A stretch of 64,000 bases of DNA from Balanoglossus misakiensis (taxonomy: Eukaryota > Animalia > Hemichordata). The position numbers were made by a program, and so were the translations under genes. Positions 99-42,282 of this stretch are shown piece by piece (within the stretch, counting starts at the first letter, position 1; the number at the start of each line of letters is the position of its first letter). The stretch covers positions 12,713,129 to 12,777,128 of the forward strand of contig CM082576.2 in NCBI GenBank assembly GCA_040954595.2, in the 5' to 3' direction. A model generated the notes under the pieces. The model had not been told where the DNA came from, made no database searches, and worked only from the letters and a program-made list of their open reading frames with translations.

Positions 99-3000
99 GT
101 TGGACAGAATAACGGAATTAGCAGAGAGTTTTCTGGGACACTTTGAGCCTTACATGGGTCGGATTGAGATCAATGGTAGGCTTCAGTTTCAGAAAGATAC
201 TTCTCAGTCATTAAGATTTCCCTGTACACTGTCTTGTCATGTTAATTATTATGGTTTGGTTAAATTGGCAACCAAGAGACACTGAAATTGTGATTCACTT
301 TGGTTCATTATAAATGACGATTTCCATGTACTGTGATTTGTCAGCAGAAACTCAAAACCATGAGAAACAAAACTTTGATAGAAGTGTGTTGAGAATTGCA
401 AATGCCGCATTTGTTCTTTGCAGCACCAGTTCCTATTTCCCCACTGATTTTTGTTTGTTTGTTTTTTTTTGTTTTTTTTTGTGTATACAGGTAGTGCCAA
501 GAGAATTGAGAGAGTTTACTTTGAGATCAAAGAATCCAACATAGAGCAATGGCAGAAACCACAGATCAAGGTAAGATTCATTTGAGTCAAATTTCTAGCT
601 GTGGTTGGCATATTGTAAAACACACATTCAATAGAAACCCCAAATAAATGCTAAGAAGCTCTGCAATTTGGAATTTTTGATAGTGTCATCTCGCTTAATA
701 ATATGTTGAACCATGTGCTTCTGTCTTCAAGGAATCCAAGCGGCAGTTCTTGCATGATATCGTCAATGAAGGCGGCGAAAAAGAGAAACTGAAAGATTTT
801 GTAGACTTCTGTGAAGACACAATCTTTGAGGTATGTATACATTCATTCATTCAGCACATACATGTAATTCACTATGATGCCCTTAAGACACATAAATGTA
901 TCATAGTCATAAATTGTCAAGAATTATTCTGATTTTATTATCGTCCACTAAGAAGTCTGATCATGACATACATGTATACCAGAGAAATTAAACTAAGTGA
1001 AACTTTCCCATTTTGTGTTTTGACATTTGTTTCCCTTGGACCCACAGATGCAGCATGCAACTAGTATTAGTGGAGAGGAAGGCGGATTCTTGGAAGTGGT
1101 CACCAATGTTTTCTCCACAGGGGGAGACTCAAAGTATGTTGATATCATTAATATCCCATCTCTGTGTATTTTTCACGTTGCACTGCTTTGTAACAACTTA
1201 TAGTTTGAACATGCATGTATGATTCAAGTGTTTGCCAGTGGGCATTTCATGGGCTCATAACCCTCATAGAAGGACAGTAGTGGTTTGATATGGTATTATT
1301 TCACTGCACTTAAAGAAATTTTCCAGTATTATATGATTTCACGCTTAAAGCTTAATAGTACCCATGATGCTCTATATACGTATAAACCATTTTTCACAGT
1401 GAAGTTAATAACTTAGTTGACAACAGAATATCTTGAACAGTTGTCAACGTAGCCATTTCACCCCCAGTTCCCTCTTTAGAGGTCCAACCTTACCATAGAA
1501 TGGGCGCAGACTGAACCATGGTGGTGAAAGGGTAAATCACACGTTGATATTGTTTGGAATAAAAAAAAAACATCCTTCATTGTCTATTTAATGCTAGGAG
1601 TTGGCTGGTTCACCTTGGTCGGTCACTGAAACCAAGCAACCTCTACAAGACGGTGAAAGATGGCATCACAAACACACAGTGGGGAGTGAAGAAGATTCGC
1701 AGTATGTCCCTGGGACAACTCCTCTTTGCGCTCATCAAGTTAGTTTTCATCATAGGATGGAAGTTCGTGGGGATATTCTTCAACCTGGCCTGGTAGGTGT
1801 CATATCTGTTGTATACACTGAGTTTACATTGATCTTACAGAGGTGTAGAATATATGTATGGCCTCTTGTGCCGTGCATCGCAAGGGTCATTTGGACATGA
1901 CCTTTATTAACACAAATTTAGCTCAGATGGTAAAAATGTGTAAATGTGAACACTGTCAAATTGTATCCTTGTAGATTTTGTTGACACTGTCAGTAGATAA
2001 AAGGTTGAACAAATTTCACCTTATGACATCAAACTATTAAAAAAACACTAAACATTTTGTAAAATTCATGTTTCAATTTTTTCTCTCTGTGCCTCAGTTG
2101 ACTTGTAAAGCATTACACAGTTTGATACTTTTTTGCATATTAGTTGCACTTTTATTTGGATCCTATACTTCACATCTATTTCAGTATCTATTAAATTAAA
2201 CCTCAGTATTTTCCCCACTGTCCTGTCTTTGCAGCAAAATAGTAGGAATGCTGATAGGCAGTCGTATCATAGAGGATGCCAAAGAGCTCACTGGAAGTAT
2301 TTCCGATACGTTACACGTGCCAAACATAGCTCGGAAAGCCACCAGAGACATGTCTGATGCTTACATCATGGGAATCAGTGGCGTAGGAAGGTAAGATTTC
2401 GAGTCAATTTGGCAGAGAGTGTAATTAAGCTCTGCAGGGTGACTTTGTATTTAACCCTTTTACCCCCATTTCCCTGTACAGATGGTACAACTTTTACCAT
2501 ATACATGTAAAGCAATGGGTTTGGACCAAACCATGGTGGTGAAAGGGTTAAAAGTACCACTTGAAAATGCTGACTAAAATGGCATATTTGACATTGTACC
2601 ACCTTTTCTGTAGTAGAAAGTTATAAAATGATACTCTGTCCTATTCTGTTCATATAAATCATTGTCAAACTCTTTCTTTAACTGATAGAGGAAGCTGCAG
2701 GGATGAATTTCATGATAAAGTTATTTAAACTAGTGACAGTTAGGTATTCTTCCCGGTATATTCATGTCAACATTAAAATTAATATTCAGTGAATCTGTAA
2801 CTACCAATTGTAGCTTGCCTTTTGTACATGTATTTCAGAAACTCACGGATTAGTTGTAAAACTAGAAATCTTCATCTTTGCACTATTTTTCAATGTAAAA
2901 GTTTTTGATTTTTTTTTACCAGTCGGCCGTCAGTATCAGCATTTGGCATTGACTTCTTCAAGAAAGGTCAAGAAGGTGGAGCTGGTCACTCAGCGGAATA

Positions 3001-6000
3001 CAGGATGAGGTTACGAAGACGGAGAGGTCTGACTCCATCGTCCAGTATCGACATGGAAGAAGAAGATGAAATGCAACCGGAATCTCCGACAGCTTTGGAG
3101 CAGAATGGTCTCAAGGTGAGAAAAGTTTGATTTAAAAGCAAGATTACGTCAAAATCATGTCTTCTTTTCATTTCTTTTGATCATAAGTTGAATAGTCTGT
3201 GGTTTGCCTTTCTGCAAAATGGTATACCCTGATTACTATTAACATGTCAATTCAACTGCAGACAACTGAGAATGGTGTTGCTGGTGGAGCCACAGGTGAA
3301 CGACGTCACAGCTCAATATTTCCAAGGTAAGAATTATATCTTCGTGTAGTAAAAAACAATTCTTCAGTGAGCAGAAAAGAGATGTAATGGGAAATTATTT
3401 GTGAGCTGTGAGATATTGGATGGATTGCAGTGGATTTTCACGCTACTTGATATTCATAGCAGCTTATCTACATGTATCTATCTAACACACTTATACATGT
3501 AAGTGTCAAATGTATAATTGGCTGGTTTTGTCTCACTTTGTAATCGCTGACTTGATTTCAGTTTCTTTCTGCTGCCGGAAGCTGAGAAGGAGAGGAAAGA
3601 GGAAGAGATTGAAGAGGTCGTTGAACCCAAACTGACACAGGCCAGACAAGCATTCTTGGTAGGTACATTCCCTGTGCTTTTCGGCAAGTGATTGGTGGTG
3701 GGGGGGGGGGGGGGGGGTAACCAATCCAAAGAGTTATCAAAGGGAACTTCAAATTTCACAGATCGGAAATAGTAGTATTTTGTGAACAATAGTGCATGAG
3801 TATGAGCAGTGTAAAGATTAGATCTAGCCAATCACAGATTTTCACTTGGGTGGGCATGTGAAAAAAGTACCACGTGGTTACTAAATGGTGCCCATTAAAC
3901 ACTATATGGGCATTCATGTATGTCAATTAGACGTGATTGTATTTATTAAATATTTCTTTTTCCTGTTTTTAATCTCTTCACAGAGTATGTTTGCCCGCAA
4001 CTATTACAACCTGAAGTACGTGGCCTTGGTGTTGGCGTTCATCATCAACTTCATCCTTCTCTTCTTCAAGGTGACCAAAACAGTCTATACACTACCTGTA
4101 TGTAAGGCTTTACTAACACAATTCTTGATGTCATAAAACCGTGATGTGATGTAGGTGATACGATGGTGTGTTGGTCAGATTTGGGGTAATGACATCAAAT
4201 TGCATGCTAGCGTGGTGTAGGTTTCTCATTTGTGCTTTTGTTTGTTTGTTTGTTTGTTTGTTTGTTAACATATAATTACAAAATTTTGATATTTGCATGT
4301 CAAAATTGGTGTTGTGCGTGTTACATAAAACTAACATAAAATAGTGCAAAATTTTTATATTAATTTTAAAAATGTTTGTCATTCGTGGTTGTTCATTGTC
4401 TCAAGACAGTAAAAATTGTTGTAGAACAACACTAACGTTATATTTTTAAAAAATGACATCAAGTTATCCCAGGTGAAATCTACTGTTTTCTGTGACCTAT
4501 TAATACTGAAAAGTAATAATTCATTTGACAAAACTAATGGCACTGCTGAGAGAATTCCCCTTTTGCAATTGTTGTATCGATTGGATCATTTTGGAAATCA
4601 CACTGAATAGCAAATTTTTTTTTGTCCATCGCACCAACAGGCTAAGAACCACGCGTACAGTGCTTTCTCAATCAGTGTGGAAGACATGCCAGATGTGATG
4701 GAAGTCGACACAAATGTGTCGGATGAAGTCGACGAGGACTATGAAGAATGGATAACACTGGAGGGTTCCTTTGGTTACCTGGAGCCCTTATTACAGCTGT
4801 TTAGTATTGTGCACACGGCCACAGCTCTGTCCATGCTAATAGCATACTGTGCATTAAAGGTGCGGTCGCTGACTCTCATAGCAAGGAAATTTATGTTTGG
4901 TGTTTGGACCATACGAAGTCACCTACAAACATGTATATGTTTGATACATCTCTTAACATTTTGTCATAGTGTTTGTAAACTGTACTTACCACATTTTCAT
5001 CTTGTTGGCCATCCCGTAGAATGTCCGGTGACTTTTGCCGTTTCATGTCAAATCGGAAAACTGGCTCTTATGTAGACTTGTATGTAGCTTTGATATGTTG
5101 AATATTTCAAATAGTGTATGAAGTTCCTCAGACTGACAGGTGAATATCTGGCACTGAAAAAATCTTCTTCTCTTTTCCTTGCCTGCAGGTTCCACTTGCT
5201 ATCTTCAAGAGGGAGAAGGAAGTATCCAGAAAACTAGAGTTTGACGGAACGTGGATCACAGAGCAGCCAGAACGAGGTGACGTCAAAAGCATGTGGGATT
5301 CTTTGGTGATCAGTACAAGGTAAGGGAATTAATCTGTGACTATGTCAAGAGCTTTTCTGAGAAACTGACTATTAAATACATAGTATACTCTGATGACTGT
5401 GGTGTGTTTGTTTGTTTGTTTGTTTGTTTGTTTGTTTGGATGAATGAATGAATGAATGTAGATGAGTGTAAAAAGCCTTGGTAAATGCTTCAAGCTATAG
5501 ATATCACCTTTGGATTTTTTCCACAATTATTCATATTCTTTCTTTCTTCAACCAGATCATTTCCCGTTAACTACTGGGACAAGCTGGTCAAACGGAAGGT
5601 GAGGAAAGTTTGCTTTCTGTTCGGCGTTGGGGTCTCTTCCGATGCATAGTGAGTGAGCCATCACTCATCTACCAATCACTACAGAAAATGTCGCCCCTTC
5701 CCATTTGTCAGTACCAGGTAAACGTCATGTGATTGTCACATGGTACGTGTAAGCCAATGATCATCTTGCTCTTTTCCCCTGTAGGTGAGGAAGAAGTACA
5801 GTGAAAGTGTGGACGATGACAAGATCTGTGCATTGTTAGGCATGGAGAAAGAAGACAATTTGTTCCAAGAATCAATGGAAGACGACCAAGACAGTATTTT
5901 GACTGCAATGTGAGTAATAGTGAATCAAACTAGAACAAAATAAAACCAAGGCTACCGGTACTCAATTTTGAATCCTTGGTTTTCTCCACCTGATTGATGT

Positions 6001-9000
6001 TTAACATGTGATTTTCTTTTCTTCAAAACATCACATTTTTAGAGAAATAGGTACAATTGAGTTTGTCAGGAGCTTTATGTATCTTTATTTTGATATGTCA
6101 ATATTTTTTTCTTCAGCTTGAAGTCCGTTGACTGGAAGTACCAGCTGTGGAAGTGTGGAGTCATATGCACCGATAATGTGAGTCATGATAATGTCAATCT
6201 TTTCATTATCTTGAATCCTAATTTCAGAAATCCACTCAGAAATCAATGTCCTGATTATGCTTTGTTATCTGATACTGTCTGGTAAATTTGTCTTGTTTGC
6301 CAGATCAAGGCTGAAGAATACTAATGTTGACACTATTTCCATTTTTCTTTTCTCAGTCCTTCCTCTACATCGCCTTCTATCTGATCTTCTCCTTCCTGGG
6401 ACACATCAACCCATTCTTCTTTGCCGCTCATCTCTTGGATGTTGCCATGGGTTTTAAGACGCTGAGGACTGTATTGCAGTCAGTCACACACAACGGCAAA
6501 CAGGTATGCTGACTGTGGGGGCGCTGTGTATGTGTAGGCCATGCAAGGACACATGTTGATAAAATTACGCATATTTGGAAGATCAGTTTGACAGTTGCCA
6601 ATTTTATAGTGTTTCTATTTTCCTGGGTTGTATTAGTAGTGTGTATGGTACACATGGATCAGCTTGTAGTGTCATATAAAGTTTTCTTGGCAGTGCTGGC
6701 TGTTTTTGGTGACATTTTTTCTAGCTTCATTTTTCTGATCGAATTCTTTATCTTTGCAGCTGATCTTGACAGTAATGATGACATCTATCATCATCTGGCT
6801 GTACACAGTGATCGCGTTCAACTTCTTCCGGAAATTCTATCTTAAAGGAGAAGAAGGAGAAGTGGAGTACAAGTGCCATAATATGTTCTCTGTGAGTGAC
6901 AGTCCTGTTGTGCATGATATACACATAGATCCTCACCAATGATCTGGACTCTTCTTACTGTTAATTATTTATTTTAAGTTTTTCTGTGTATAAAGTGCAT
7001 ATGATGGTAATGACGGTGACCATGACAACAGTGACAAATACAATGATGATGATGATGATGATGACGACGACGACGACGAGGACGACAACAACAACGATGA
7101 TAAATAATTAAACTGAAGTACATGTCAAAAGAACTGCACCTGTGCGCATTAAATGCACTCCCAGAGTTCATACATTCAGGAAAGTCTGTGAAAGTCCTGG
7201 AACCTTAAACCACTCCTGGAAAATCCTTGAAAAATTAAATATAAAATCATGGAAAATTGTTTTATATTAATTATAAAACTTCAAAAATCATGAAAATTTT
7301 CTCGTGAGTTCACTAGCACAGTTATGTATCTTAAATACCTCTAGAAAATCACCAAAAATTATGAAAGGTTCTGGAACTTTTAGAGACTGACCAGTGACTT
7401 CATCCTTGTATGAACTCAGGCACTAGTCTTGCACTAAGCTTGTCAGAATTACTTTACGGTAATGTTATTTGATTTACACACCTTTTTTTCACTTTTATTT
7501 AAGCTATTCTATTTTTGTTTTTGTTTATTATGTTTTATACTTTCAGTGTTTTGTGTTCCATTTGCACACTGGTTTGAGAGCAGGTGGTGGTATAGGTATG
7601 TATCCCAGCATGCCGTTGCTCGGTCAGACTAACAGCCTCTCTTTGCATTCCAGTGTTTTATCTATCATTTACATAGCGGCTTACGGGCTGGAGGAGGCAT
7701 CGGTAAGGCGTCTCTTCCTCTAAGTCTCTTGCAATGTGAAATCAAAACAAAATCAAAGAAATAATAACAATTTTTCTAGGTGACTGGTTTGCAGTAGGGT
7801 CTGTGTTGTGATTGGGGAAACTTCCCAATAATATTCTCAATATATTCAGGATTTAATAAATCACTTCCCCAACACAAATTGTAAGGAACTTCTCTGTAAA
7901 TTTTGAAGAAAATTACTTCAGTCTCCCCACCCCCCTCCACACTTTCACCTACTGCTGTAACCTATAAAATTCTTTTGTGTATGCTTTTAGTACACACTGT
8001 ACAAAACATTATGCAAATGAGAGTGCCTAATTCCAATACAGCTGATGCATTCCTGTAAAGTCGTTCCTGCGTACTGAGTAACAGAACCACTTTGTTTAAT
8101 GAATTTGGAAGAAAAGAAAAATTAACCTACATTGTTGAAACCTCCAGTGAAGTTTACCATGAAATGTGAATTCAGTTTGAAGGAGCTCGACTTATAAAAA
8201 CCTTGCCATAATTTTTTTTTACCAGTCAAGTATGTGTGTCGCCCCACATTCAGAGATACTTGCATAATGTTATTTGTTGCATGACAGTGAGATGTTGGGG
8301 ACAGATGCATTTGTTTTGCGACCTTTGTGATGTCAGATCAGGTCACCTCACACATCCTCATGTCTGAGAGTTATCATAAGCCCGGACCAGTCCCAAGTCG
8401 TAAAGTCGGCTACACTTTCCAAGTATGTGGGTGTGATGTGGAGTAATGTGTATTTTTGTAACACAGGTCTTGACCTGGGAGCGAGAAGAATTCTATAAAT
8501 GTAAATATAGGCTTGCAGTGGTGAAAAACAGGAGACAAATCTTTGTTGATGAAATACACGGTGTGAAAAGTATGGCTAACTATAGTCAAATCTCTGGCAC
8601 TGCATACAAATATTAATATCGCGATTCCATATCTGAAATTTCTGGAAGTTGTACATTAAGTGCAATTTAGAATATCAAAAGAAAAGCAAATGCCTGCTTG
8701 AAACACTCACTCAACTGTGGTGGGTGCAGTATTCCCAGAACGACAGGGATGGCATCAGAAAAATCTGTTTGTACGTGTATTCATGCATAGACCCTAGATG
8801 TGAAATGCTTGATAAACATAAATGTATATAGAATTTATACTGAACTTGGTGGTGTAGACCAAACGGGTACTTTATTTTGTGTGATCATTGAATAAAATTC
8901 TATATGAAGTTTCATATTTGCAGACTATCCTTCAGACAAAATAGAAAGCCACTTTGTAGTGTATCACTCCACCATTTGTTTTGCATATTTCACACGACCT

Positions 9001-11298
9001 TTCGGAAGGCCTCAGCTTTGGGGTCAAAGTGCAAACGTAAAAATACTAGTACCAGTGCATTTCCTGTATATACCGTAGTTGCTAAAATTTTCTCACGGTA
9101 TTTACCACTCAAAAAATCAAGAAAAATCAAGAAAATTTTCATTTTTTATGCCAGAATCATCACAGACTTTACTGATGTAATGCTAAAATAAACATTAATC
9201 TATTCTCTAATTTTTGCAGCCGATGAGATTGAAGCTCCAGATGGTGATCCGTACGAGTTCTACCGTATCGTCTTTGATATCACTTTCTTCTTCTTTGTGA
9301 TTGTCATCTTGCTTGCCATCATTCAGGGTGAGTACAATCAAAACTGATCAGCAGGCAACAGAGGAACACACCTTATGAATGTATTTTATAGATAGTGTTT
9401 TAGCAACTTATAAATTTCAAAGTGAATCATCCATTATAATACACATGTATACAAAACCCATCGTTATCTGAACTGTAACATCATAAACTTTTGGAGTTGG
9501 CGCTTTATCTGATTATGTTTATAATTAAGTTACAGATAACTTCATTGTCAACACTTTTTTTGCATCTCTTCAGGTTTGATCATCGATGCATTTGGAGAGT
9601 TGAGAGATCAGTTGGAACAAGTCAAAGAGGACATGGAGGTAAACATGACAATGCTGTTATAGAAACTAAAGACAGACATGCACTGTGCTGAGGATGACTG
9701 CCCTCTATGGCTGAAATGCAACTATGGTCATAGTCCTTGCCTTGAATGTGAAAAAGGTTCTCTCAAGATATTTTTTCAAGAGATGCAGATATTTATTCAC
9801 ATAAACAGTCTGTGCATTATACATATTTGGAAAAATACAACAACATTAAAATACTATTTTCTTCTTGTACAGAGTAAATGCTTCATCTGTGGTATTGGGA
9901 AAGAATACTTTGATCGAGAACCTCATGGATTTGAGAAACACGTCATGAAAGAACATGACTTCGCAAACTACATGTGAGTATTAATAATCGCTCTAGTGAC
10001 CACACTGGCTTAACCCTTTCACCACCACAGTTTGGTCCAAATATATTAGTTTCTATGGTAAAGTTGGACCTCTGTATTAAAGGGAACTGTGGTGAAAAGG
10101 TTAAAGTCATAACAATACAAATGCATCTACACGTGTTATTATATAATTTTCCTCCCATTCAGTTTATTTTTTTTAATTTCACAAATTTACAAAAAATTTG
10201 ACATCACTTCATCCAGATCTGATCAGACTATTTTTTGGTAAGGCTGGCAGGATATAATAAAAATTCACAGGAAAGGGGAAATGTATCATGAGAAACCATG
10301 TTGGTCATATCTCAAACAGTACCACTAGTCAAAGAAACATGATGATTGCCGAAACAAAACAGGATCGTGAGTGATTACTGATGTCAGCTCAGTTAATATA
10401 TGCCAACAGTTGACAACAGACACCTATGCTGTTTAATTAAGTGTACACCCTCCCTCCTCATATTTGTTTGACACACTATCACTATCAGTGTGACTAATGG
10501 AAAAATTCCTGTGTTTCGTTCACCAGGTTTTTCTTGATGCACTTGATTAACAAACCGGAAACCGAGTACACTGGTCAGGTAAGGGGGAAGCAGACTTTTC
10601 AGAATTCTGGACGGCGTCTTGTTTACTCTGGTGTTCAGTCATGCATGACAAAAGCGATTTTAAAGTATCTATTCTTCCGCGACAGAATGAATGCTGTTAA
10701 ATCCCAGATGTTAGATAATGCGCCAAAGCCAGGGTGAAATTAAACCTATACAACCAGAGATCCAGTCAATTCTGGTCTTTCACAATTCCTTTTGTGTCAC
10801 TTTTCAATTCCCAGCACTCTTGTTACATGGAAATAATGCATATTAATTATTATGATTACTGTTTCATTGTATCACAATATCGGTATTAAATGGCAGAATT
10901 GAACAAAGGCATATTGTTGGATGGCAGGTCAACTGAAACTGTTACAGTGACTGGTGGAGCAATTCACAGGCTTTTACTAACCAGTGTATGCAGAAAGTAG
11001 GCATATACACAAAAGGAGAAAATTTTGTTTATGAAACATTTATGTATGTTTTAAATTGGGTTAACGTTTCAGTATGATTTACTGGCAAGATAGTAAGTTT
11101 ATCGTACCCTGTTTGTCTAATAAACAATGTTTTGGTGACAAACACAACTGTTAGAAAATAGCATTTTGTGATTGTTATGAATTCTGGATTTCTTTTGATC
11201 TGTTGCAGGAGTCCTATGTGTGGCAGCTGTACCAAGAGAGATGCTGGGACTTCTTCCCCGTCGGAAACTGCTTCCGGAAACAATACGAAGAAGAATGA
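99..11298 (+). CDS. RYR: Ryanodine receptor, C-terminal part (post-EF-hand region, S1-S6 channel domain, C-terminal Zn domain); 5' part lies outside the window
   Basis: Phase-compatible GT/AG exons: 99-175, 491-570, 732-830, 1048-1133, 1598-1792, 2235-2390, 2923-3115, 3262-3326, 3562-3658, 3984-4070, 4641-4859, 5189-5319, 5556-5598, 5785-5909, 6117-6177, 6357-6503, 6760-6891, 7547-7595 or 7654-7702, 9220-9327, 9574-9638, 9873-9973, 10527-10578, 11209-11298. RyR hallmark peptides: [199 protein letters not shown]. Confidence 0.98.
1450..1536. mobile_element. Degenerate copy of ~95-bp piggyBac-like MITE family
   Basis: Shares ccatggtggtgaaagggt end and cacccccagttccct...ccaaccttaccata interior with the 2451-2551 copy. 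Confidence 0.6.
2451..2551. mobile_element. ~95-bp piggyBac-like MITE (TTAA TSD, CCCTTT...AAAGGG termini)
   Basis: TTAA|CCCTTTTACC ... GGTGAAAGGG|TTAA; related copies at 1450-1536, 10010-10104 and 18863-18947. Confidence 0.75.
7040..7100. repeat. Compound (GAT)n(GAC)n(CAA)n trinucleotide microsatellite
   Basis: Directly visible in the RyR intron. Confidence 0.85.
7162..7418. mobile_element. Degenerate non-autonomous DNA transposon (hAT-like MITE)
   Basis: 11-bp inverted ends gagttcataca / tgtatgaactc, repeated internal (cc)tggaaaa/tgaaaa motifs; TSD only partially matching (gcact). Confidence 0.5.
7547..7595 (+). CDS. RYR: RyR pore-helix/filter exon, copy A ([16 protein letters not shown])
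   Basis: 49 nt, tttcag acceptor, G|gtatgt donor, phase 0 in and phase 1 out; fits between exons 6760-6891 and 9220-9327. Confidence 0.92.
7654..7702 (+). CDS. RYR: RyR pore-helix/filter exon, copy B ([16 protein letters not shown]), putative mutually exclusive alternative
   Basis: 49 nt, ctctctttgcattccag acceptor preceded by a GACTAAC branch-point consensus at 7627-7633, G|gtaagg donor; same length and phases as copy A; 13 of 16 residues identical. Confidence 0.9.
10010..10104. mobile_element. ~95-bp piggyBac-like MITE, opposite orientation to the 2451 copy
   Basis: TTAA|CCCTTTCACC ... GGTGAAAAGG|TTAA; interior is the approximate reverse complement of 2451-2551. Confidence 0.75.
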
Positions 11299-12947
11299 AC
11301 AGAACTTACAATCTGTCTTTAAATGCCTTGAAAATAACGCGATGAAACTAAAAACACACAAGTGAAACTCAAAACTCACTCTGTCGGAGTGTGTAGAAGA
11401 CAAACTAACCATGTGAGAATAGGAAAAAACGTTGACAGCTTCCTGTTAAGTTTGAACCTAACCATGCGAAAATATGAAAACAGTTCTTAAAGATTAAAAC
11501 GAAGCAAAAAAATATGTACGGGAATGAATTGAAGTGATTTTAGTCTTCTGCTGGACTGTGTTTATTTGTAGTATCAGGATAGCCGGGGATGTTCGTAAAC
11601 AAAGAAAGGCTATGCCCAATACTTGTAAGTCCCTTCTAACTATTATTTAAAAATAGGAAGACAAAAAAAGAGAAAGACGTAATGTCAAATATTTTCATAT
11701 AATATCTAATATATACTGTTAGTTGTGTGTTCAGAACTGAACAAATTCAGTTTTTTTTCAAACAATGAAGAACACAACTTTGTATAAGATCATGTCCGCA
11801 AAAAAAGCAGTAGGGATGTTGGATTCTCTGCTTTTAGCAATTTAGCAAAACCTACAATCATGTTCTTCAGATTTCAAGTTTTACTCTCCACCGATCTTCA
11901 GATTTTTAGGAGAGAACGTTAGAACCTTTTTTAATAAAGACTTCTCCTTCTGAAAGGAAACTTTCTCATTATCTATGCAAAACCAAATAAAACTGTGCCT
12001 GGTGTAGGGCCTCTTCTTTGAAACAGATGGAGTTAGGAAGGAGAGAATCTGCCATTTTATGCACGGAACAAACATTTTGCACTGTCGGAGGAATTCTACC
12101 GAGATATTGCCAAACAGAGTGTGTGTGAACAAAAAACACTCAGACAACTCACATTGTGTGTATAATGACAGCAGTTTTAAAAACAAATTGATATTATAAT
12201 TTGCAGTCGTTTATTGCATGACGAAACTTTCAAACTAATTTGTGCTAGAAGATACCGAACGTATGTTTACACGCAGCAGACACCATGACATTTCTGTGCA
12301 TCGAAACATTTGTATTTATTGGGGTGCTGAAGAGGTTTTTACTAGAGTTAGTAAAAGTTCAACGCTAAGAAAGTGCAATGTGTGATTAGCTTGTATGTAC
12401 CGCTGTTATTTACATAATAGGACGATTTCAGTAGAGAATGACAGTAATAGTGTGTAGCTGCTGTTTTTTCCCTGTAATTTGCTCCCCTAGAAGTAATGGC
12501 AGCTTAATTTCCTTAGTGTCCATCAGTTTGGGTTTGACTGTAATTTCCTTTTTAAAGTTTTATTTAAATTGGGTTGGTTTGGTGTTCATAGAGATTTTTC
12601 AAGTTAAATTATTCGTTACGATAGGAGGGTTCCATAGCGAAACAAGTTTTAGATGTAGTAACACTATAAAAATATTTCAAAGGCAAGCTGGTCTTAGCTG
12701 ATAGGTCATTACAGATTTTCAATTCTGAATCAAGCTTGAATTTTAACATCAACAAATCTTCCGAGCCATTTGCAATTGACTGATTTTTTTTTTTTGTACA
12801 GCTCACGATTACAAATTAACACGCTGAATGAATTTCCATACTCTGCCAGTTGTTGTCATTTCAAAAACTGACAAGAAATAAAATCCAACATTCTTTTGCA
12901 AAGAATATTGTTGTGTCTGATTTTCTTTCAGTTTGACTGGTAAATGG

Positions 12948-13639: not shown

Positions 13640-15065
13640 TCATTGAAAATGCTTGGCCTTCGTTTCAAAGAACCACATAAAAGCCAACATGAGTCCCACT
13701 GGCTTTAACTTGGTGTCGTCAAATATGAATTGTCTGCCGTCCTTGAGAGGAATTTCAACCACGTCGATCATTTCCCCTTCTTCCACCAGACCGCCTCCTT
13801 GGGTTTTCCTCATGTCGTCTGTGACTTCCACATAAAACATCGTCTGTTGGCTTCCACTTGCCCCAACATTAGATCTGAAATGAACAAACTTCATGCACTT
13901 TAATTTTATTCCCTCCAGCTCGCTGTCTATCTCCCATAACACCTTGAAATCACACAAACTTTCCTGCATGGCCAGAATCAAAATACTCCAATCAACATTC
14001 TTACCTGTATGAAGCCACTTTTTCAAGTTTCTCAATTGGCACATCGTAACCAGTTTCATCCAAGATTTCTTCTCTTGCCATCTGTTCCAGGCTGCATGTC
14101 TTATCTACAATGCCTGCGCAGAGTTCAAAGGTCATACCAGTGCTCCCTGGGTATTTGTCTGTATCGACCGTTCCATTGCTAATCTGTGCTTCTGAAATGT
14201 ACACAGCTGAACACCAAAAAACGAAAATTTATTGACTTTGAAAAGAACAGCATACCCCTTTATAGGAAGAGGAACATTTGCTGGTACACTATGTGTGTAA
14301 ATAGACCAAACCCATACTGACAGTTGCTCAAATGCTACAGCAACCACAAAAGAACAATCATGGAAAGATGAGATTTATTCATAAACTTGTGGAATCTATT
14401 TTTAAAAAAGTCAATTTACATATCTTTCACAAATTCTTACCAGGTCTAAACTGTTTCACTAAGATGAAAACCTTTCTCGTGACATTGAAAATCATGATAA
14501 CAACACTGCAATAATAAAATGTTAACACACAATCAGTGACATTTCAAAGATTTTTAAATGTTATATTTTATATATTTATATTTCTATCTTCATCATGTGA
14601 GAATTAGTTCTGTTTCATGAAGTCTGGCTGCTACAGCAAACTTACAGACTGTGTGAGTGAACATTGTGTAACTTGTTGTGCATTTCAGTTTCACTTTCAC
14701 TTTGTTCCAAGGAAGAAAAGACAGGGAAATGAAATGTTTCCGATTTGGTGGACAAAATGTTTATTTGAGGTGTAAAAATTAATAAATAATTTCTTTTGCA
14801 AACAACAACTAGCACCCACCCACTCATATATGCCCTTCTCCCTCACCTGTCGTGAACTTTTATGTAGTCCCAGGTTTTCTGCACCCCGTTCTGTCGGTTA
14901 AAATGGAGAGGAAAACCTGTGTTAACAATTCCTCATCCTTGTTTTGCAAAGCACAAATGCAATAGAATGTTTATTCAGTACCTGCTTGTAATGCATTCTG
15001 CAAGGTTTGATGTACTTCGACTCAGAAAAGGGAACCACACTGACTTCTTCGATGTTGTCTGCCAT
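13640..15065 (-). CDS. NUDT14: Uridine diphosphate glucose pyrophosphatase NUDT14 (Nudix hydrolase), ~209 aa
   Basis: Five exons 15065-14982, 14890-14847, 14505-14441, 14206-14005, 13874-13640, totalling 630 nt in frame. Translation: MADNIEEVSV...MHYKQNGVQKTWDYIKVHDSVVIMIFN...LVKQFRPAVY...ELCAGIVDK...EEILDETGY...SNVGASGSQQTMFYVEVTD...GGGLVEEGEMIDVVEIP, colinear with human NUDT14 motifs. Confidence 0.95.
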
Positions 15066-15411
15066 CTTGACTGGTGCCGTAAAAGGATATCACCGGAGGT
15101 CACAAAGTATCGTCGCAAAACCGAAGCGACAAATCGCAATGCGAGAAAATTAGTTAGGAAACGACAATAACCAATGCAAAAAAAGACACTAGTGCTTTAA
15201 TTACGATGTGTATTATGGCAAAATTATTTTTAAGGGGAAGGCTTATTTTGCGTTAATGTAGTTTTAAATTTGACTTGAGATTATACAGCAGAACGAGGCT
15301 AAAGGCTAAATCTAGGTCAGAGGTCACAGTAGGCGCGGTGTGTTGCAATGATACTGCGTGCTTTATGATATGTAGGTGTTCTTTTGAGTCTTTCTCGCAA
15401 ATTTTACGAAG
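15066..15411. promoter_or_regulatory. Putative bidirectional promoter NUDT14 / C6orf120-like, containing a perfect DR1 element
   Basis: Relatively CpG-rich ~350 bp between the NUDT14 ATG (-) and a strong + strand donor (AAG|gtaagt at 15411/15412) that could splice to the acceptor at 16385 ahead of the C6orf120-like ORF; AGGTCAgAGGTCA at 15314-15326. Confidence 0.6.
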
Positions 15412-16452: not shown

Positions 16453-16944
16453 ATGTTACTCGGTCTGTATATGTTTTTCTGGCTAGTTCTTACAGCCACA
16501 GCGACAACTGAGTGCGGTGAACAATGCGTCAAATTACAGACATTTGTTGGGAAAATCGGAAGTGGGAATTTCACTTATTACCGACTGACTAGGGACGGCG
16601 ATCTGTCTCTGGTGCTAGAAACCGTAGAAGGAGACACAGACATCTATGTTTCGCAGTCCACCATGAGTCCTGATTACAATAACTATGATCTGAAGTCTGC
16701 AACGTGCGGGACAGATGTTGTTGACATACCCAAGGGTTTTAAAAGACCCATTGGAGTGGGGATCTACGGGCATGTGTTCTATCCCGCCAGCACATTTAAA
16801 CTGCACGTAATGATGGACTATCCGACAGACCACTACGAAGGTGCCAGTGGGTTTCAAAGCCACCAGTCGGAATCGGAGGAAGAAAGCCTTCTGTGGACTA
16901 TATTTGTCAGTATATTGAAGATTCTCTTTGATATTCTTCTGTGA
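16453..16944 (+). CDS. C6orf120: UPF0669 protein C6orf120 homologue (signal peptide, single coding exon), 163 aa
   Basis: Signal peptide, then GKIGSGNFTYYRL, EGDTDIYVSQ, YDLKSATCGTDVVDIPKGFKRPIGVGIYGH and C-terminal EEESLLWTIFVSILKILFDILL, matching the C6orf120 family pattern; upstream acceptor tttttaccaacag at 16385. Confidence 0.9.
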   Translation: MLLGLYMFFWLVLTATATTECGEQCVKLQTFVGKIGSGNFTYYRLTRDGDLSLVLETVEGDTDIYVSQSTMSPDYNNYDLKSATCGTDVVDIPKGFKRPIGVGIYGHVFYPASTFKLHVMMDYPTDHYEGASGFQSHQSESEEESLLWTIFVSILKILFDILL

Positions 16945-22734: not shown

Positions 22735-24252
22735 TTAAAACAGTTTGAATTTGCCGCCCTTTTTGGACTTCTTCCCGCTCGCGGCTTCTTCACTCTCGGC
22801 TTGGATCGCGTTCAGTTGTTCTGTTGCTTTCTGCAGCTCTTCTTCTTGGGCAGCCCTCTTGGATTCAGCCTCGGAAAGCTTGGACTTCAACTTACCGACT
22901 TCGTTCAGAAGTTCGCTTATTTTGGCGTCTTTCTGGTTTACGCTTGTCGTCAACTTCTGTACTTGGGCAGAATCTGTCTTTAACTTGGCGGCTTCGCTTT
23001 CGAGCTGCTTAATTTTGTCCTCCTTCTCGGACAACGACTTCGTAGCGATTTGCAATTTGCCGACGTCCCTTTGAAGAGTGGATTTTTCGGACTCCAGCTT
23101 GCGGATTCTTTCGTCCTTGTCCGCGGCAGTCTTGGCGACGTTTTGTTGTTTGGCGGAATTATCTCTTTTCAATCTGGCGTTCTCTTCTTCCAAGCTTCGT
23201 ATTCTTTGATCGCTTTCTTTGGCGGCTTTGGACGCATCTTCAAGTTTGGCAACTTGGGCTTTCAGAGCGGCATTCTCTACTTCCAAGTCTTTCGTCTTGT
23301 CACCTGTCTGCGATAACGACTTGGTCATGTTTTCGATCTCTCGTTTAATGTTCATGGTAAGTTTTCCCTCCAACTCCGCCATGCTGTCTTGTAGAATGGA
23401 CGTTTTCCCGGCGACCTCCTCTAAAACCTTCTCGGTTGTGGTCTGGATGCTTTGAGAGGCGTCCCGGTTCTTGCTCGTCGCTTCCTCGAACTTGTCTTCC
23501 AGAAGCGTGAGCTTTTCCAAGATTTCCTCTCGCCCTTTTGCCGCCTCCTCCGCCTCTTTTTCTTGACCGCCATCCTCCTGGGAGGGGCTCTCGTCCTTGG
23601 TAACCTCCTCCAGGATTTTGAAGTTTTGGTCCTCCAGTCGGTTCATGCGTTCCTGGATCACCGTGAGCCGTTCGGTCGTGTCCAGGACGGACAGCCCGCT
23701 TTCTGACGCCACTATCTCCAGCCTCTCTTCCAGCGCGGCGAGTTTCTCCAGCACCGCCTGATTTATCACCCGGTCACCCTGCGCTGCAGCAGTCCGCGGC
23801 GACAACTGAACTTCCTCCGACCCGGCATCGCTGGCAGATTCCGGTGACATCACCGGGTCATCACGCACCTCGGGGCTGCGAACTCTTGGTGGCCCTCTAC
23901 TACCGCCACCGCCATTTCCTTTCTGATGCCGCTGTGGTTGTGTTTTCATCCTGCGTTCATTGGCCTGGGGCTGTGCGGCGGGTTTTTCCTGTGTCGCCGC
24001 TGCCACCGGGGTGGTTTTCCTCGTTGGCAGAGGTATCCCCGACGAGCGCCGCACAGGTATCTTGCTCCCCTGCGGCGTGGTGGGCGTTCGGCCGCCTCCG
24101 TGCGCCGCGTATTCCTGTTCGCTCATGTCCATCATCTCATCGTCGACCGATCCACCGCGGTAGTAGGACTGCACGTCGCTGTATCTACCGTATTGTCCGT
24201 TCTCCTCGAATTCGTTGAAGTTGGCCATAACGTTTGTCTCGTTATAGGCCAT
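22735..24252 (-). CDS. Uncharacterised coiled-coil protein (~505 aa), single coding exon
   Basis: Long GC-rich ORF; first in-frame ATG at 24252 in good context (acgATGg; the ORF track starts at an upstream TTG). Disordered N-terminus with SKIP and SGIP, long heptad region, C-terminus GKKSKKGGKFKLF. Putative 5'UTR intron 25106-24487 (CAAG|gtaagt ... tttgtgttgcag); minus-strand AATAAA near 20736-20741. Confidence 0.85.
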   Translation of the reverse strand: MAYNETNVMANFNEFEENGQYGRYSDVQSYYRGGSVDDEMMDMSEQEYAAHGGGRTPTTPQGSKIPVRRSSGIPLPTRKTTPVAAATQEKPAAQPQANERRMKTQPQRHQKGNGGGGSRGPPRVRSPEVRDDPVMSPESASDAGSEEVQLSPRTAAAQGDRVINQAVLEKLAALEERLEIVASESGLSVLDTTERLTVIQERMNRLEDQNFKILEEVTKDESPSQEDGGQEKEAEEAAKGREEILEKLTLLEDKFEEATSKNRDASQSIQTTTEKVLEEVAGKTSILQDSMAELEGKLTMNIKREIENMTKSLSQTGDKTKDLEVENAALKAQVAKLEDASKAAKESDQRIRSLEEENARLKRDNSAKQQNVAKTAADKDERIRKLESEKSTLQRDVGKLQIATKSLSEKEDKIKQLESEAAKLKTDSAQVQKLTTSVNQKDAKISELLNEVGKLKSKLSEAESKRAAQEEELQKATEQLNAIQAESEEAASGKKSKKGGKFKLF

Positions 24253-27001
24253 CGTGAAAACAACTCTGTCCGGTTCAGGTCGAGTCTCTTTTATAAATAC
24301 GACGTAGATTCCGACCTTCACAATAACCTGCTCTGGTCGATACACCCTATTTGTGTTTATTGTGGCCTCGTGTTCAAACGGTAAGGTCCACTCCAATGTG
24401 AAGGTTCACACCTCGCCCCAAAGTACGCAATCTAGTTGAATAGGTCTTCAGTCCCTTCATGCAAGCACTGGCCTGGCAATCCCAATCTGCAACACAAATA
24501 AAAGTATTACATATCACCTTCGGGGTAAAGTTCCTGAAATAGGCCAATTAATTAACACGATCTCCCATCCACTCCAGGCCGACTCGAGAGTTCCGGTATT
24601 TTTACACTTCGGAGCTCATCACAGCGACGCACCGTCGTGTCATCCGAGGCCGACCTGACCTTAACTCGGACATGACAGGGATGGGCAAGGCAACGACCGT
24701 AGGCCCCGTTTTAAACACAATGTACAATATGCATGTTTGACAAGCGAACCAGGTGTTAAATAAACACGACGTACCACCGACTCGATCAAGGAGAACTTTG
24801 GACAATACGTGTACTGTGGATATAATATACTTCCCCGGCGCATTCGATGAACTCCCGCGTTAGATAAAACTCGTTCCCTCCTTTTTGGCACGAACAGAAA
24901 GTAGACGTGGGAAAAATCGTTTAACTGTCACCATAATCCCGATCCCATGCACAACCGCCTACCACTTTATTTTGTATTCGCAGCATGGGCCCACAACTGA
25001 ACACTTTCAATAATTTGCCCGAGTGAACGATCGCCAGGGCGTGACTTGTGTCACAAGAAATCGGCTCTGGGTTTGTTAGGGTGAAAGGGGTCTCGGTAAA
25101 ACTTACCTTGATGAATCGCCGTGATGGACTCTGTATCCGTTGGATCTGCAAGCAGTGGACGAGCAGCAGACAGCTACAGAAAACAAAGCATTCCACGCCA
25201 AAGACAATATATCGATTCCCACAGCAGAGTGCCCGGCCTGGTCGCGGTGAAATGAACTACAGTTTACGTACGTACGTACACACGCTGGCGTGGCCTAAAA
25301 TAGAAAAAGTAGTTCGCACATGAATACAATGATAATGTTTGAAACAGCTGCACAAGGCAGATCTTCCCCGCAGGCTGTCTGGTCTTTGCACATGAAAACT
25401 CGCGACAGAATGGACTCCCATTCATCTAGAGATGACACCGCGTAAAAAGTGTGTACATTTCAGTATAAGAAGATCCCCACCTTCCAATCGCCTTTGACAA
25501 GAGACTGCACGCTATTCCAAACACGATTTAAACCCCTCCGGGTCATCGTACGAATTCATGTGTAGTTTCATGGTGATGTCATCTTTAGCCAGACAATACA
25601 TGTAAACAACGCAGAAAAGAAACATCCGGGAATTGCATTTACCGATAAATTTGATACAAGCCTGCTCATACGAGTGACATTTGGGTCACGCGTCAACACG
25701 TCACAGATCCTGTTTTGTACGCTTTGTGTGTTTATAAAATACCGCGTTTTGATAAGATGGCCTATAACGCAATTGACATAGTGGTATGCCGCTATATATC
25801 CGCTGTGATTATCCAAACAGTTAATTCACACCTGGATAAAGTAACAACGCAATAATGTTTAATGAGGTTTGATAATCGGCAATGAGATTTGCGTATATCA
25901 CTGGGTAAATTAATAGGCGAATAGGTCATGAATTTGTCACCGGCGCGATATTTCTAGTGCATATTAACCCCAAGACATTCAATTAACCCTCACCCATCTA
26001 ATAAATACTATGACTTTTTTCAAATAAAATTGATGGCAACTGTTGCCTGCAGCTGGTTACAATGTAATCTTACTATTGGTGAAATGTGTTTTGTATATGA
26101 TTTATAGGCGTGTACCTTGGGACGTGTACCGTGTACCATCGGTGTGTTGGTATTTGGTCTAGCTGATGTTAGCTGTGATGAAGTACTTAAAATACTGATA
26201 ACTGATACATCGTTTGGATTTTCGGTCCCGATGATGTAAGCGTTAAAACTTCCTGTTTCGCGAAACTCAGCTGTCCAGTAACCGCTGGACTGCGTGACGT
26301 ATGTTTTCACAGACAGCGTCATCGCGTATAGATTTGCAGTCCACAAAATGCACACTGTATAAATAAAACGTTAAATATACATGATATATGTCTCATGTAT
26401 TGGCGTTTAAATATTTTCGTACGTAATGCGACCACATCAACATTCGTGATTTACTCAGACTATTCAGGGCTTGTGGAAGGAGAGACTTCCCCGGACAATC
26501 AGTGTATACAGCGATAACGATTTCCCGGCCAAAGATATAATGGGTGAAAATGTCTGGATCGATTTTCCCTGCTGTTCGCGACGTACAAGATTAGTCGTTG
26601 GCGATGAACAGAATAATTGGGCGTCTTTGGGTAATTTATTGACCATCCAGGGGCCTTTCACTTGAAGATTATGTAAATATATCTCGACTAGATTGGGTTT
26701 CTGAGATGCCAGACGCTTTATACCTCTCGGACCATTCAAAACCAAAGAATAGGAAGTGAAAACTGACGTAATCTGGATCACGGCACGCATCACAGCTGCC
26801 GCATGTTAAATCCATACCCTGACCAAATACCACACCAGAAAATCTGTCTCGCTAGCCATGGCAACTGGTGAGCGCGTGGGTTGATTCTGTTGATGACACC
26901 GCTGCCGGTTTGTGGGGGCCAAGCTTCAAAACACATTTTCCGTCAACATTTTCTATCAATCCACAAACTATGGCGGAAAGTATCCACGCACAAATTCGCC
27001 G

Positions 27002-37900: not shown

Positions 37901-40900
37901 ACAGATGTGGTAGAATTAATATTTTTTGATAGTATTAGTACATTATAAATTACAGTGTAATATTTCAGAATCAGAATTTAACATGTGAGATATTTACTCA
38001 GAGTACCTAGCATGGATTAATTTATCTGTCCAAGAACAATCGGCAAATGTCCAATTTTCATTTTGTGAAATTTTTGAATTGTTTATTATAGCGATATCTC
38101 ATACATGCTGCAGAATTTTTAGAAAAAACATGCTTATCCGTATTATTCTCAATGACTTGCATAATTCTACAAAAATCGGCTAAATAGATTGAAAATTGAG
38201 AGGTTTTGAACACTTTCAAAATACCAAGAGTCAAATATATAGGTTACAATGGAACAGTAAGATTTTGCACATGCAATAGCGCGCGTTTGGAACCTTGCCA
38301 GCCATAGCAGCCAATGCGTGATTTGAATCTTTCAGTATCACCTCAAAGACATGACTTGTGTATTGAAAATTGATATTTCAATTTTTATCCAGCATTGAAG
38401 GCTTTTTTTAGTCACAGAGAATTGAGTCTCATGTCTTTTGTCGTTTGACATACTTTTCGTTAGAATACTTGAATCGAATTTTTTTCCTTTTGACTGATGT
38501 CTCATCAATAAAGAGCTAGAAGTTACAATGGTGGTGCACATAAAGAAAATCATGTTTCTGAAGGTGACAAAAGTACCCAGGGAATATGCAATATATGAAC
38601 TTGAGTTTCCATAAATTACATGTATACAGTTTTCAACTAACCAGTGCAGGAATGTTGATCTTTCAGAACATGTTCACAAATTTCACTTTTTTTTAATAAT
38701 TAATCGTCATTATTGATACCAGTACTCACAATAATGTTTTTTTTCACCCCGAAACAGAGATTCTTTCTGCGAAGCACAAAAACCAACGAGAAGGGAGAGA
38801 CACCCAAATATGTTTGCCCCAAAGGGAGCCAGAAATGCGATATCAACAAAACGACCAGAATCCGATGCCAGTACTGCCGCTTGCAAAAATGCTTCGAGGT
38901 TGGCATGGCGAGGAAAGGTAGGTCCCAGCATGCTCCATTACACATTCATATGCAAATGTCAAAGGGGGAGAATGAAACTTGATCTGGACGTGTTGTTTGC
39001 AACCAATGGGGGGGCATAAGTCTGCTATGAGCATGATATGTACAGTACTAGTCATGTACAATATTAATGTTAATAGCAAACAAATTATAGGTTGCCCATA
39101 TACACAGAAATTTTAATCAAATTGAAATAAATTTAATCAAACGGGTAATACACGATGAAGAAGTGTAATGGCTGGGAAGATTTGTAAAGTGATATGGCAT
39201 TATGATTGAGAAGCCTGAAAGGGGAATGAACTCGATTGAAAGATGGTAAGGTCAGTCAGTGTGTCACACTCTCCGTTGAGGGGTGATTTGCAATAATGTA
39301 TGGTTGGCTGAACAAGTTATATGATCCCTGGAGAATGCGGAGGTAATATTGATAAGCTCCACTGACCAGGGATTATATAATTGTTATTGTAAAGGTGTAT
39401 TCATGCATACAGAATGATAACAGTATTGATATGAATCTGAATTGCAGACTTAAAATTATGAATATATTTAAATATTTTAATGTTTTCTATAGATGGCACG
39501 CTTAAATAATATACCAAGCAATTTCTCTGTGTTGTGTGCAAACCTAGTCCAGAAAGTTTCCTTGGCTCTGCCAAAAATACAGGGCTCTTGGCAGACTCAA
39601 AAAGGCAAGATAGATTCCTATTTATTTTGTGACATCTGTCTTATTTCTGATTTCTTGTCGTACTATCTCCGATGTTTTTTTTTGGCTATAAAGGTTGGGG
39701 AACATTGGTAAATGATTTGGGAAACCCAGTAACACTTTTGCTAATAAAAAATGTGTCATAGCTGGTAGTATTCACATGTTCTGACCAAATACAAGTACAT
39801 GGTTATGAGTTGAGCTCAACAACCAGTCATTGAGCATTGTATTTCAGTGAGCAAAAAAACATCATTTGAAGTGGTCTGTTTGTATACTGTAACCGTGTAC
39901 TAGTACAGGTATACATGTATCTACCAGGGTATCTGTGAATGTATGGTAGGTACATGTATGACATTATGTGTGGTTGTATATTTGTTTTCTATGTACATGC
40001 AGTTGTATATGTGTATGCTGTTTATTCAATTATTGGTATATTTTTAATGCAAAAAAGTTTACACAAAGGAGTTACACGGTGTGTTTGGACTGAGACTGAG
40101 TCTGAAAGAAAGTGTTTTTTGAAATGTGGGTCAGTACATTGGATACACACATTGCACTAATGGACTGACTCGGCAGAGAGCCAGTACACGTTTGGTCAAC
40201 AGACGTGTCAGTGCCCTTTTTTCAGGTGCACTTTTTCACCTAACATCTAGCTCTCGTTTGCTATTTAACAGACACATGATAAAAGATAATTATTATATTG
40301 AAAATGAATTAGGAAGGGACAATGCTTCGTCAATATATACTAAGATACCAATTTTGAAAAATTAACTTTGTTTTAGATCCTTGACATCAGGCCCTTTTTA
40401 TCGATAAAGGTCAAATATATGTTGTGATGGGGTCTGGATGACTTCAGAGGTGAACCCGCACAACAATGGTAGCATCAGGGATATCTCAATGTATGGTCTG
40501 TGTTTATTCTGATACTGCTGTGTCAGCTGAAATGTTGTCCAAAGGAGAAATGAGCCTGAGAAGTCACAGCTGAGCTATGCATGCACCTTCTGTGAATCAC
40601 CGTGGAATTGATGATTCTGGAAGTTTTTATATATGCAAGGAGATCTTACTACTACATTGTATACTGCATGTCGTAAAATTTGTGCTACTTATAGTTTTGT
40701 AGTTCCTCAGAACAGGATTGCCATTACATGCTGAGTAGGCAATGGGAAGGTCGCTTTAATGGGATCAAGGTCATGGTCGATGTTATTATGACCTGCACTG
40801 TCATAGTGGATAAGTGGTCAAGCCCAGCCCATGGGCTGTGGTAGACATTATTTGTCTAAAACTGTTTTTAAATCTCAGAATACAGTGTTGCTGTATACAT

Positions 40901-42231: not shown

Positions 42232-42282
<51 letters not shown>

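What the first reader, a model, noticed from the sequence alone, without database searches (positions are those of the whole stretch)
7547..7702. Tandemly duplicated RyR pore-helix/selectivity-filter exon arranged as mutually exclusive exons
Seen: two 49-nt exons, each with valid splice sites and identical phases, encode [16 protein letters not shown] and [16 protein letters not shown]. They differ at many synonymous sites but only three residues (V/I, F/Y, T/S), which suggests both are under purifying selection. The spacer is only 58 nt, with a consensus branch point (GACTAAC, A at 7632) about 36 nt from the upstream donor; including both would also shift the frame (49 nt). Established: a donor-to-branch-point distance this short sterically enforces mutual exclusion (as in alpha-tropomyosin exons 2/3). 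A GCATG (Rbfox-like) motif at 7608-7612 and ACTAAC (QKI-like) lie in the spacer. Inference: one RyR gene makes two pore isoforms, possibly tissue-specific, that differ in conductance, gating or ryanodine binding. I cannot establish whether this has been described for this lineage.
Basis: partly seen in the sequence, partly recalled or inferred. Interest (0 to 1): 0.85.

Follow-up and report, generated by a model that had tools for sequence, protein, structure and literature searches.

The report
Twin pore exons in ryanodine receptor
The calcium-release channel (ryanodine receptor) gene of what is likely an acorn worm carries two old, intact copies of the small exon for its pore helix, likely spliced in one at a time to give two channels that share the same ion filter and are predicted to differ only slightly.

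Summary
Two 49-nt AG/GT-bounded exons (7547-7595, 7654-7702) lie 58 nt apart, and either one completes a stop-free 819-aa RyR C-terminus; both together, or neither, give an early stop. Silent sites are saturated (pS about 1.2) against pN 0.095, so the duplication is old and both copies were constrained. The protein groups with echinoderm RyRs as their sister, so the animal is likely a hemichordate.

Either-or splicing is likely but untested: no RNA run was listed and no hemichordate relative was retrieved. Steric exclusion is plausible, not established for this lineage. The three changes lie in the pore helix (rabbit L4884, F4885, V4889), not the filter, and each residue occurs in other RyRs, so a large conductance switch is unlikely. 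Sea-urchin models show one version only.

No paper found describes alternative RyR pore exons, and the scan had not noted this pair on other DNA. It has noted similar pore-exon pairs in other channels, also in this genome. Two by-products: a GGGIAD filter shared with echinoderms, and copepod RyR database isoforms that swap the whole pore. Interest 0.45.

The parts
6760..6891 (+). Constitutive upstream RyR exon (S5 and luminal loop), 132 nt, ends in phase 0
   Evidence: residues 1-43 align to rabbit RyR1 4837-4880
7547..7595 (+). Pore exon A, 49 nt (pore helix plus GGGI; V, F, T at the variable sites)
7596..7653 (+). 58-nt spacer between exon A donor and exon B acceptor
   Evidence: shortest of 20 constitutive introns is 146 nt
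7608..7612 (+). GCATG, Rbfox-type motif (label recalled; AGCATG here, not the full UGCAUG)
   Evidence: about 6% chance per 58 nt
7628..7633 (+). ACTAAC, predicted branch point of exon B (A at 7632; +37 from exon A donor, -22 from exon B)
   Evidence: predicted, not mapped
7654..7702 (+). Pore exon B, 49 nt (pore helix plus GGGI; I, Y, S at the variable sites)
9220..9327 (+). Constitutive downstream exon (end of filter, loop, S6); its first two bases complete an Ala codon, so both isoforms read GGGIAD
99..11299 (+). 3' part of the RyR gene: 22 constitutive exons plus the pore slot, 819 aa to the stop codon
   Evidence: the nine upstream exons were set by inspection and checked for AG/GT ends and an open frame

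Best explanation
This RyR gene, likely from an acorn worm, holds two anciently duplicated, selection-kept copies of its 49-nt pore-helix exon that are likely spliced either-or, which would give two channel subunits with the same GGGIAD filter and three conservative pore-helix differences predicted to tune gating or conductance only modestly. Shown: the anatomy, the open frames, the early stops when both or neither exon is used, saturated silent divergence, intact splice sites. Inferred mechanism: exon B's branch point lies only 37 nt from exon A's donor, so U1 on the A donor and U2 on the B branch point cannot be used together; rare double-inclusion or skipped messages would be removed by NMD. 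Speculative: a factor binding GCATG at 7608, just downstream of A and upstream of B, would favour A in some tissues. Because RyR is a tetramer, cells using both exons could also build mixed pores (inferred).
For: pS about 1.2 (13.5 silent changes on 11.2 sites) against pN 0.095, with 13 of 16 third positions changed; 0 of 200,000 random 17-base changes left 3 or fewer residue changes and no stop. Both copies keep all 9 positions that are invariant across 33 distinct homologous segments, 8 within the exon and the Asp just after it. Against the echinoderm state (V, F, S) each copy has changed: A at one site, B at two (parsimony). Splice sites score like constitutive ones; the spacer is 58 nt against 146 nt or more for 20 constitutive introns. 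Exon length 3n+1 puts an early stop in double-inclusion and skipped messages. The same 49-nt exon, single, occurs in 6 of 6 metagenome loci, so the unit of duplication is an ancient exon. Tandem duplicated exons are enriched in ion channels and listed for RYR3, fly RyR and unc-68 (PMC9741552; passages). The tree places the protein sister to three echinoderm-clade RyRs, SH-aLRT 100, quick method.
Against: No transcript evidence was obtained, and no relative with both copies was found. All 5 sea-urchin models that contain the pore, including L. variegatus isoforms X1-X3, carry one version. A recent loss of use is not excluded: 3 random changes pass the test 57% of the time and 5 changes 11%. The variable sites are tolerant: 9 residue types at V4889, 6 at L4884, F or Y at F4885 among 33 distinct segments, which argues for a small or no functional difference. 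Exon A has no YTRAY branch motif within 60 nt of its acceptor, though 7 of 22 constitutive acceptors also lack one. The steric threshold is lineage-dependent.
Confidence: 0.7

Rival explanations
1. Both exons are used either-or, but the two proteins are functionally equivalent; the copies survive because each has become the one that is spliced well in some tissue or stage (regulatory subfunctionalisation). This shares the splicing steps of the best explanation and differs only on function.
For: All three substitutions are conservative and each occurs in other RyRs: Y4885 in molluscs, I4884 in flatworms, S or T at 4889 in echinoderms, flatworms and molluscs. The filter is unchanged.
Against: B combines I and Y, and neither copy followed by its next two residues equals any of 33 distinct homologous segments. 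Conservative changes in duplicated channel exons can alter conductance or gating (PMC9741552; passage on Slowpoke and para).
Confidence: 0.3
2. One copy is now unused or nearly so: an old functional duplicate that was silenced recently and has not yet decayed.
For: Sequence cannot detect a recent silencing. Echinoderm models show only one version. Exon A lacks a near branch motif; exon B has the weaker donor.
Against: Both copies have intact, mid-range splice sites and no disabling change after saturation of silent sites; this would need a coincidence of timing.
Confidence: 0.15
3. The cassette mainly sets RyR dosage: regulated double inclusion or skipping makes early-stop messages that NMD destroys.
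For: Both aberrant products have stops 352 and 245 nt before the last junction. Nested inverted repeats flank the cassette.
Against: A poison exon would not need to keep the amino-acid sequence, yet both copies do. The short donor-to-branch distance disfavours double inclusion.
Confidence: 0.06
4. Assembly artefact, a second haplotype, or a fragment of a paralogous RyR gene.
For: No reads could be laid on the region.
Against: The copies are only 65% identical with saturated silent sites; blastn of 7481-7780 finds no second match in the window; no other RyR exon in the window is doubled.
Confidence: 0.02

Closest known systems
Insect RyR mutually exclusive exons a/b in the second SPRY domain (PMC3342285, PMC3787966, PMC3989282, PMC6026295, PMC8301844; passages)
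   Same: Same gene family; a tandem pair of either-or exons; use differs by stage or body part in the insects tested.
   Different: Those exons lie in the cytosolic N-terminal part and differ at 13 of 33 or 20 of 31 residues. Here the pair builds the pore helix and differs at 3 of 16.
Tandem duplicated exon substitutions listed for human RYR3, fly RyR and C. elegans unc-68 (PMC9741552; passages and supplement rows)
   Same: Repeated, independent exon duplication in RyR genes.
   Different: The supplement files human and fly events under 'different region, convergent'. I did not see where the RYR3 and unc-68 events lie, so a pore location for them is not excluded by what I read.
NALCN alternative selectivity-filter exons 15 and 31 (Senatore et al. 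2013, PMC3557258; abstract and section list)
   Same: Duplicated pore exons in a single-copy channel gene, reported from flatworms to non-chordate deuterostomes.
   Different: NALCN exons change the charged filter residues (EEEE against EKEE or EEKE). Here the filter is identical in both copies.
Copepod Eurytemora carolleeae RyR RefSeq isoforms X2 and X3 (XP_023320279.1, XP_023320280.1)
   Same: One annotated RyR gene with two alternative pore regions, including a change at the V4889 position.
   Different: The swap covers the last 211 columns (S5, pore, S6, C-terminal domain; 35 differences, with E or V at the E4900 position), so likely alternative terminal exons. It is a database model whose DNA I could not inspect.
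Steric mutual exclusion: alpha-tropomyosin exons 2/3 and OGDH 4a/4b (PMC7969005, PMC6692369; passages)
   Same: Donor-to-branch distance under about 50 nt (37 here; 25-41 in human OGDH).
   Different: OGDH uses distant branch points far from the acceptor (alpha-tropomyosin likewise, recalled). Here the predicted branch point is at a normal -22 and the whole spacer is short; it is predicted, not mapped.

Membership tests
Ryanodine receptor | Sequence homology to RyR S5-pore-S6 and C-terminal domain | tested here: met
   All 39 PDB sequence hits of the upstream exon are RyRs; 68% identity over 484 columns to sea-urchin RyR
Ryanodine receptor | GXRXGGGXGD pore motif | tested here: inconclusive
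   Reads [10 protein letters not shown]: Ala for the last Gly, as in 6 of 433 held proteins with the motif, all in the echinoderm clade. A lineage variant, not a loss of membership
Tandem-duplicated mutually exclusive exons | Homologous neighbouring exons of equal length and phase with valid splice sites | tested here: met
Tandem-duplicated mutually exclusive exons | Both copies under purifying selection | tested here: met
   pS about 1.2, pN 0.095; 0 of 200,000 in the random null; a recent silencing is not excluded
Tandem-duplicated mutually exclusive exons | Double inclusion or skipping is unproductive | tested here: met
   Early stops 352 and 245 nt before the last junction
Tandem-duplicated mutually exclusive exons | Each exon is found, alone, in mRNA | not testable with these tools
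   No RNA holder was listed, so no reads could be laid
Tandem-duplicated mutually exclusive exons | Pair conserved in related species | tested here: inconclusive
   No hemichordate RyR retrieved; 5 of 5 sea-urchin models show one version; single copy in the 3 metagenome loci that span both flanking exons
Sterically enforced exclusion (alpha-tropomyosin/OGDH type) | Mapped branch point under the spliceosome's minimal distance from the upstream donor | tested here: inconclusive
   Predicted branch point at +37; not mapped; the threshold for this lineage is unknown
Selectivity-switching pore exons (NALCN type) | Alternative exons change the filter residues that set ion selectivity | tested here: not met
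   GGGI identical; differences at L4884, F4885, V4889 of the pore helix

The most novel reading that the evidence does not exclude
The first ryanodine receptor with a splice-switched pore helix: acorn worms build two pore types, and mixed tetramers, from one RyR gene on an unusual GGGIAD filter, with a tissue-specific splicing factor choosing between channels that differ measurably in conductance, luminal Ca2+ sensing or ryanodine binding. Together with the copepod isoforms this would make pore swapping a repeatedly evolved invertebrate counterpart of the vertebrate RyR1/2/3 split.
Probability: 0.25. Interest if true: 0.7.

Novelty: new variant of a known kind. Interest (0 to 1): 0.45.

Why it matters
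Most invertebrates have one RyR gene, and the mutually exclusive exons described in the insect RyR papers I read lie in the cytosolic part. An either-or exon in the pore helix would show that splicing can reach the conduction pathway of this channel family. It offers a ready natural pair of variants (three residues) for asking how the pore helix behind the filter tunes RyR. The expected effect is modest, and duplicated exons in ion channels are a well-known class. The shared echinoderm/acorn-worm Gly-to-Ala change at the position of human disease mutation G4898, and the copepod whole-pore swap, may be the sharper leads.

Tried and rejected
No whole genome is held for this window. Three homologue searches covered 78-2000, 201-2000 and 3218-5000 residues and list at most the best 120; RyRs over 5000 residues appeared only as cluster members, and no named hemichordate RyR came up. 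The representative search (best 150 of 308) gave mostly vertebrate- and arthropod-type exon fragments by sequence. The metagenome pattern scan gave 6 loci, each with one pore exon; 3 of the 6 span both flanking exons. No held protein checked had the pore motif twice. The window's C6orf120-like protein is not in the collection, so it gave no species name. Repeat search and folding showed no convincing docking/selector pairing: one U-rich/A-rich pair around the cassette and a fold at z -2.1, 4 of 200 shuffles as good; not pursued. My first exon model had off-by-one boundaries and was replaced. The careful tree did not finish; quick trees were used. No structure prediction was run, since the tools return no side-chain contacts. 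Literature: searches for RyR with mutually exclusive exons and pore, GGGIAD, filter/invertebrate splicing, copepod isoforms, hemichordate, sea urchin, G4898A/G4828A and tandem exon duplication showed no description of alternative RyR pore exons. Most results were seen only as search listings, and the library lacks most subscription papers (for example the Heliothis and sea-urchin RyR cloning papers, the latter recalled).

Full report
Observation. A scan of all six frames finds no third copy (scores 91 and 91 against a next best of 31), and tblastn with two insect RyRs hits this exon twice and every other exon once. With boundaries corrected and nine upstream exons added, either exon gives an 819-aa frame over 23 exons with no internal stop. 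Including both puts a stop 352 nt before the last junction, and skipping both 245 nt.

Gene and lineage. All 39 PDB hits of the upstream exon are RyRs, and its residues 1-43 align to rabbit RyR1 4837-4880. The duplicated exon therefore covers 4882-4897. PMC2668181 (passages) assigns M4879-A4893 to the pore helix and 4894GGGIGD to the filter. The three differences fall at L4884 (V/I), F4885 (F/Y) and V4889 (T/S), all in the helix; GGGI is the same. In a quick tree of 26 C-terminal sequences the window's protein is sister to two Lytechinus RyRs plus one unnamed transcript, SH-aLRT 100. It is about as identical to sea urchin as to oyster over the last 469 aa (68%), which fits a hemichordate. This is inferred; no hemichordate sequence was in the tree. 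Unreviewed notes on other pieces of this genome also call it an acorn worm.

Selection. Silent sites are saturated (Nei-Gojobori pS about 1.2; 13 of 16 third positions differ) and pN is 0.095. None of 200,000 random 17-base changes left three or fewer residue changes without a stop. Eight random changes left two or fewer in 0.4% of trials, five in 11%, three in 57%. So neither copy has been dead for long, but a recent silencing cannot be seen. The echinoderm state is V, F, S, so by parsimony A changed one residue and B two.

Splicing signals. With matrices built from this gene's own sites, the donors of A and B outscore 10 and 6 of 21 constitutive donors and the acceptors 13 of 22; few intronic decoys reach these scores (2 and 12 of 543; 6 and 4 of 381). 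Exon B has CTAAC with its A at -22, which is +37 from A's donor. The spacer is much shorter than any of 20 constitutive introns (146-630 nt). A minimal donor-to-branch distance of about 50 nt is reported for mammalian, viral and yeast substrates, with assembly abolished at 35 nt (PMC6692369; passages); human OGDH uses 25-41 nt (PMC7969005; passages). C. elegans, however, splices introns down to about 40 nt (PMC4165533; passages). Steric exclusion is thus likely here, not established. ACTAAC is the branch motif itself. GCATG at 7608 is well placed to favour A over B under the usual Rbfox position rule (recalled), but arises by chance in about 6% of such stretches. No convincing RNA pairing was found.

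Relatives. A metagenome scan with a pattern that fits both exons returned 6 loci. Each has one 49-nt pore exon with the same boundaries, and 3 of the 6 span both flanking exons; their peptide matches the annelid type. Many vertebrate- and insect-type genomic ORFs read straight through GGGIGD, so those lineages lack the intron and cannot duplicate this unit. Of 9 clusters compared member by member (a tenth, Lingula, had one member read), 8 show a single version of the segment, including L. variegatus X1-X3, 11 Tachypleus isoforms and 8 Penaeus isoforms. The exception is the copepod Eurytemora: RefSeq isoforms X2 and X3 are identical for 4660 columns and differ at 35 of the last 211, across S5, pore, S6 and the C-terminal domain. 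No named hemichordate RyR was retrieved; the searches covered 78-2000 and 3218-5000 residues and list only top hits. Conservation in other acorn worms is therefore open.

How different would the isoforms be? Among 33 distinct homologous segments (from 360 of 498 held proteins), V4889 takes 9 residue types, L4884 takes 6, and F4885 is F in 30 and Y in 3. Every residue in A or B is a natural allele elsewhere. This counts against a large effect and keeps functional equivalence as a serious rival. It does not exclude fine tuning, which is documented for duplicated exons of other channels (PMC9741552; passages).

A shared oddity. The split codon after GGGI is Ala in both isoforms. Ala occurs there in 6 of 433 held proteins with the motif: five sea-urchin models and one unnamed transcript of the same clade. 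Arg at this position (G4898R) abolishes Ca2+ permeation and ryanodine response in RyR1 (PMC2668181; passages). Searches for GGGIAD and for G4898A/G4828A found no paper.

Comparison with what is known. Mutually exclusive RyR exons are well described in the insect SPRY2 domain, with a possible second site at the calmodulin region (PMC3342285, PMC3787966, PMC3989282, PMC6026295, PMC8301844; passages). Duplicated-exon events are listed for RYR3, fly RyR and unc-68 (PMC9741552; passages and supplement rows); I did not see the positions of the RYR3 and unc-68 events. Alternative pore exons are known in NALCN, where they change the filter charges (PMC3557258; abstract). Eight searches aimed at RyR pore splicing or its context, mostly seen as listings, showed no report of alternative RyR pore exons; subscription papers are largely missing from the library. 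The scan's earlier notes hold no look-alike of this stretch and no RyR pore pair among the notes shown, but 41 of 86 notes on this genome fit a duplicated-exon query, including a TRPC pore pair. The arrangement thus seems common in this genome, going by unchecked notes.

Verdict. A real, old, selection-kept duplication of the RyR pore-helix exon, likely spliced either-or (about 0.8 that both are used; 0.7 for the whole best explanation). It is a new location for a known kind of event, with a predicted small functional effect and no expression data. Interest 0.45.

Noticed in passing
window 7595/7702 joined to 9220-9221: Both isoforms read GGGIAD instead of GGGIGD (Ala at rabbit G4898). Shared with sea-urchin RyRs and one unnamed transcript, 6 of 433 held proteins; no paper found.
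   Followed up: partly
P0321 and P0450 (Eurytemora carolleeae XP_023320280.1 and XP_023320279.1): Two RefSeq isoforms of one copepod RyR differ only in the last 211 columns, swapping the whole pore domain, with K/Q at V4889 and E/V at E4900. The V type occurs in 17 held proteins; no paper found.
   Followed up: partly
L001-L006: The 49-nt pore exon has identical boundaries in six metagenome loci of annelid-type sequence, while many vertebrate- and insect-type ORFs lack the intron after GGGI.
   Followed up: partly
window 7161-7420 and 9087-9175: A small element with 14-nt inverted ends upstream of exon A (partial match at 4333-4371), and three nested inverted-repeat pairs (18-25 nt, 80-86%) linking it to 9087-9175 around the cassette; probably repeat remnants.
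   Followed up: no
window 7505-7526 and 7745-7766: A U-rich tract before exon A can pair with an A-rich tract after exon B; low complexity, fold z -2.1.
   Followed up: partly
window 16453-16944 (+): Single-ORF gene for a C6orf120/UPF0669 protein; exact sequence not in the protein collection.
   Followed up: partly
window about 13640-15070 (-): Nudix-hydrolase-like gene (NUDT14-like; label recalled) converging on the RyR 3' end.
   Followed up: no
window about 38700-49400 (+): Pieces resembling a nuclear receptor, with zinc-finger and ligand-binding parts (labels recalled).
   Followed up: no
window 22735-24405 (-) and 62847-63653 (+): A 556-aa stop-free frame with a long coiled-coil-like part, and a 268-aa frame with short tandem peptide repeats.
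   Followed up: no
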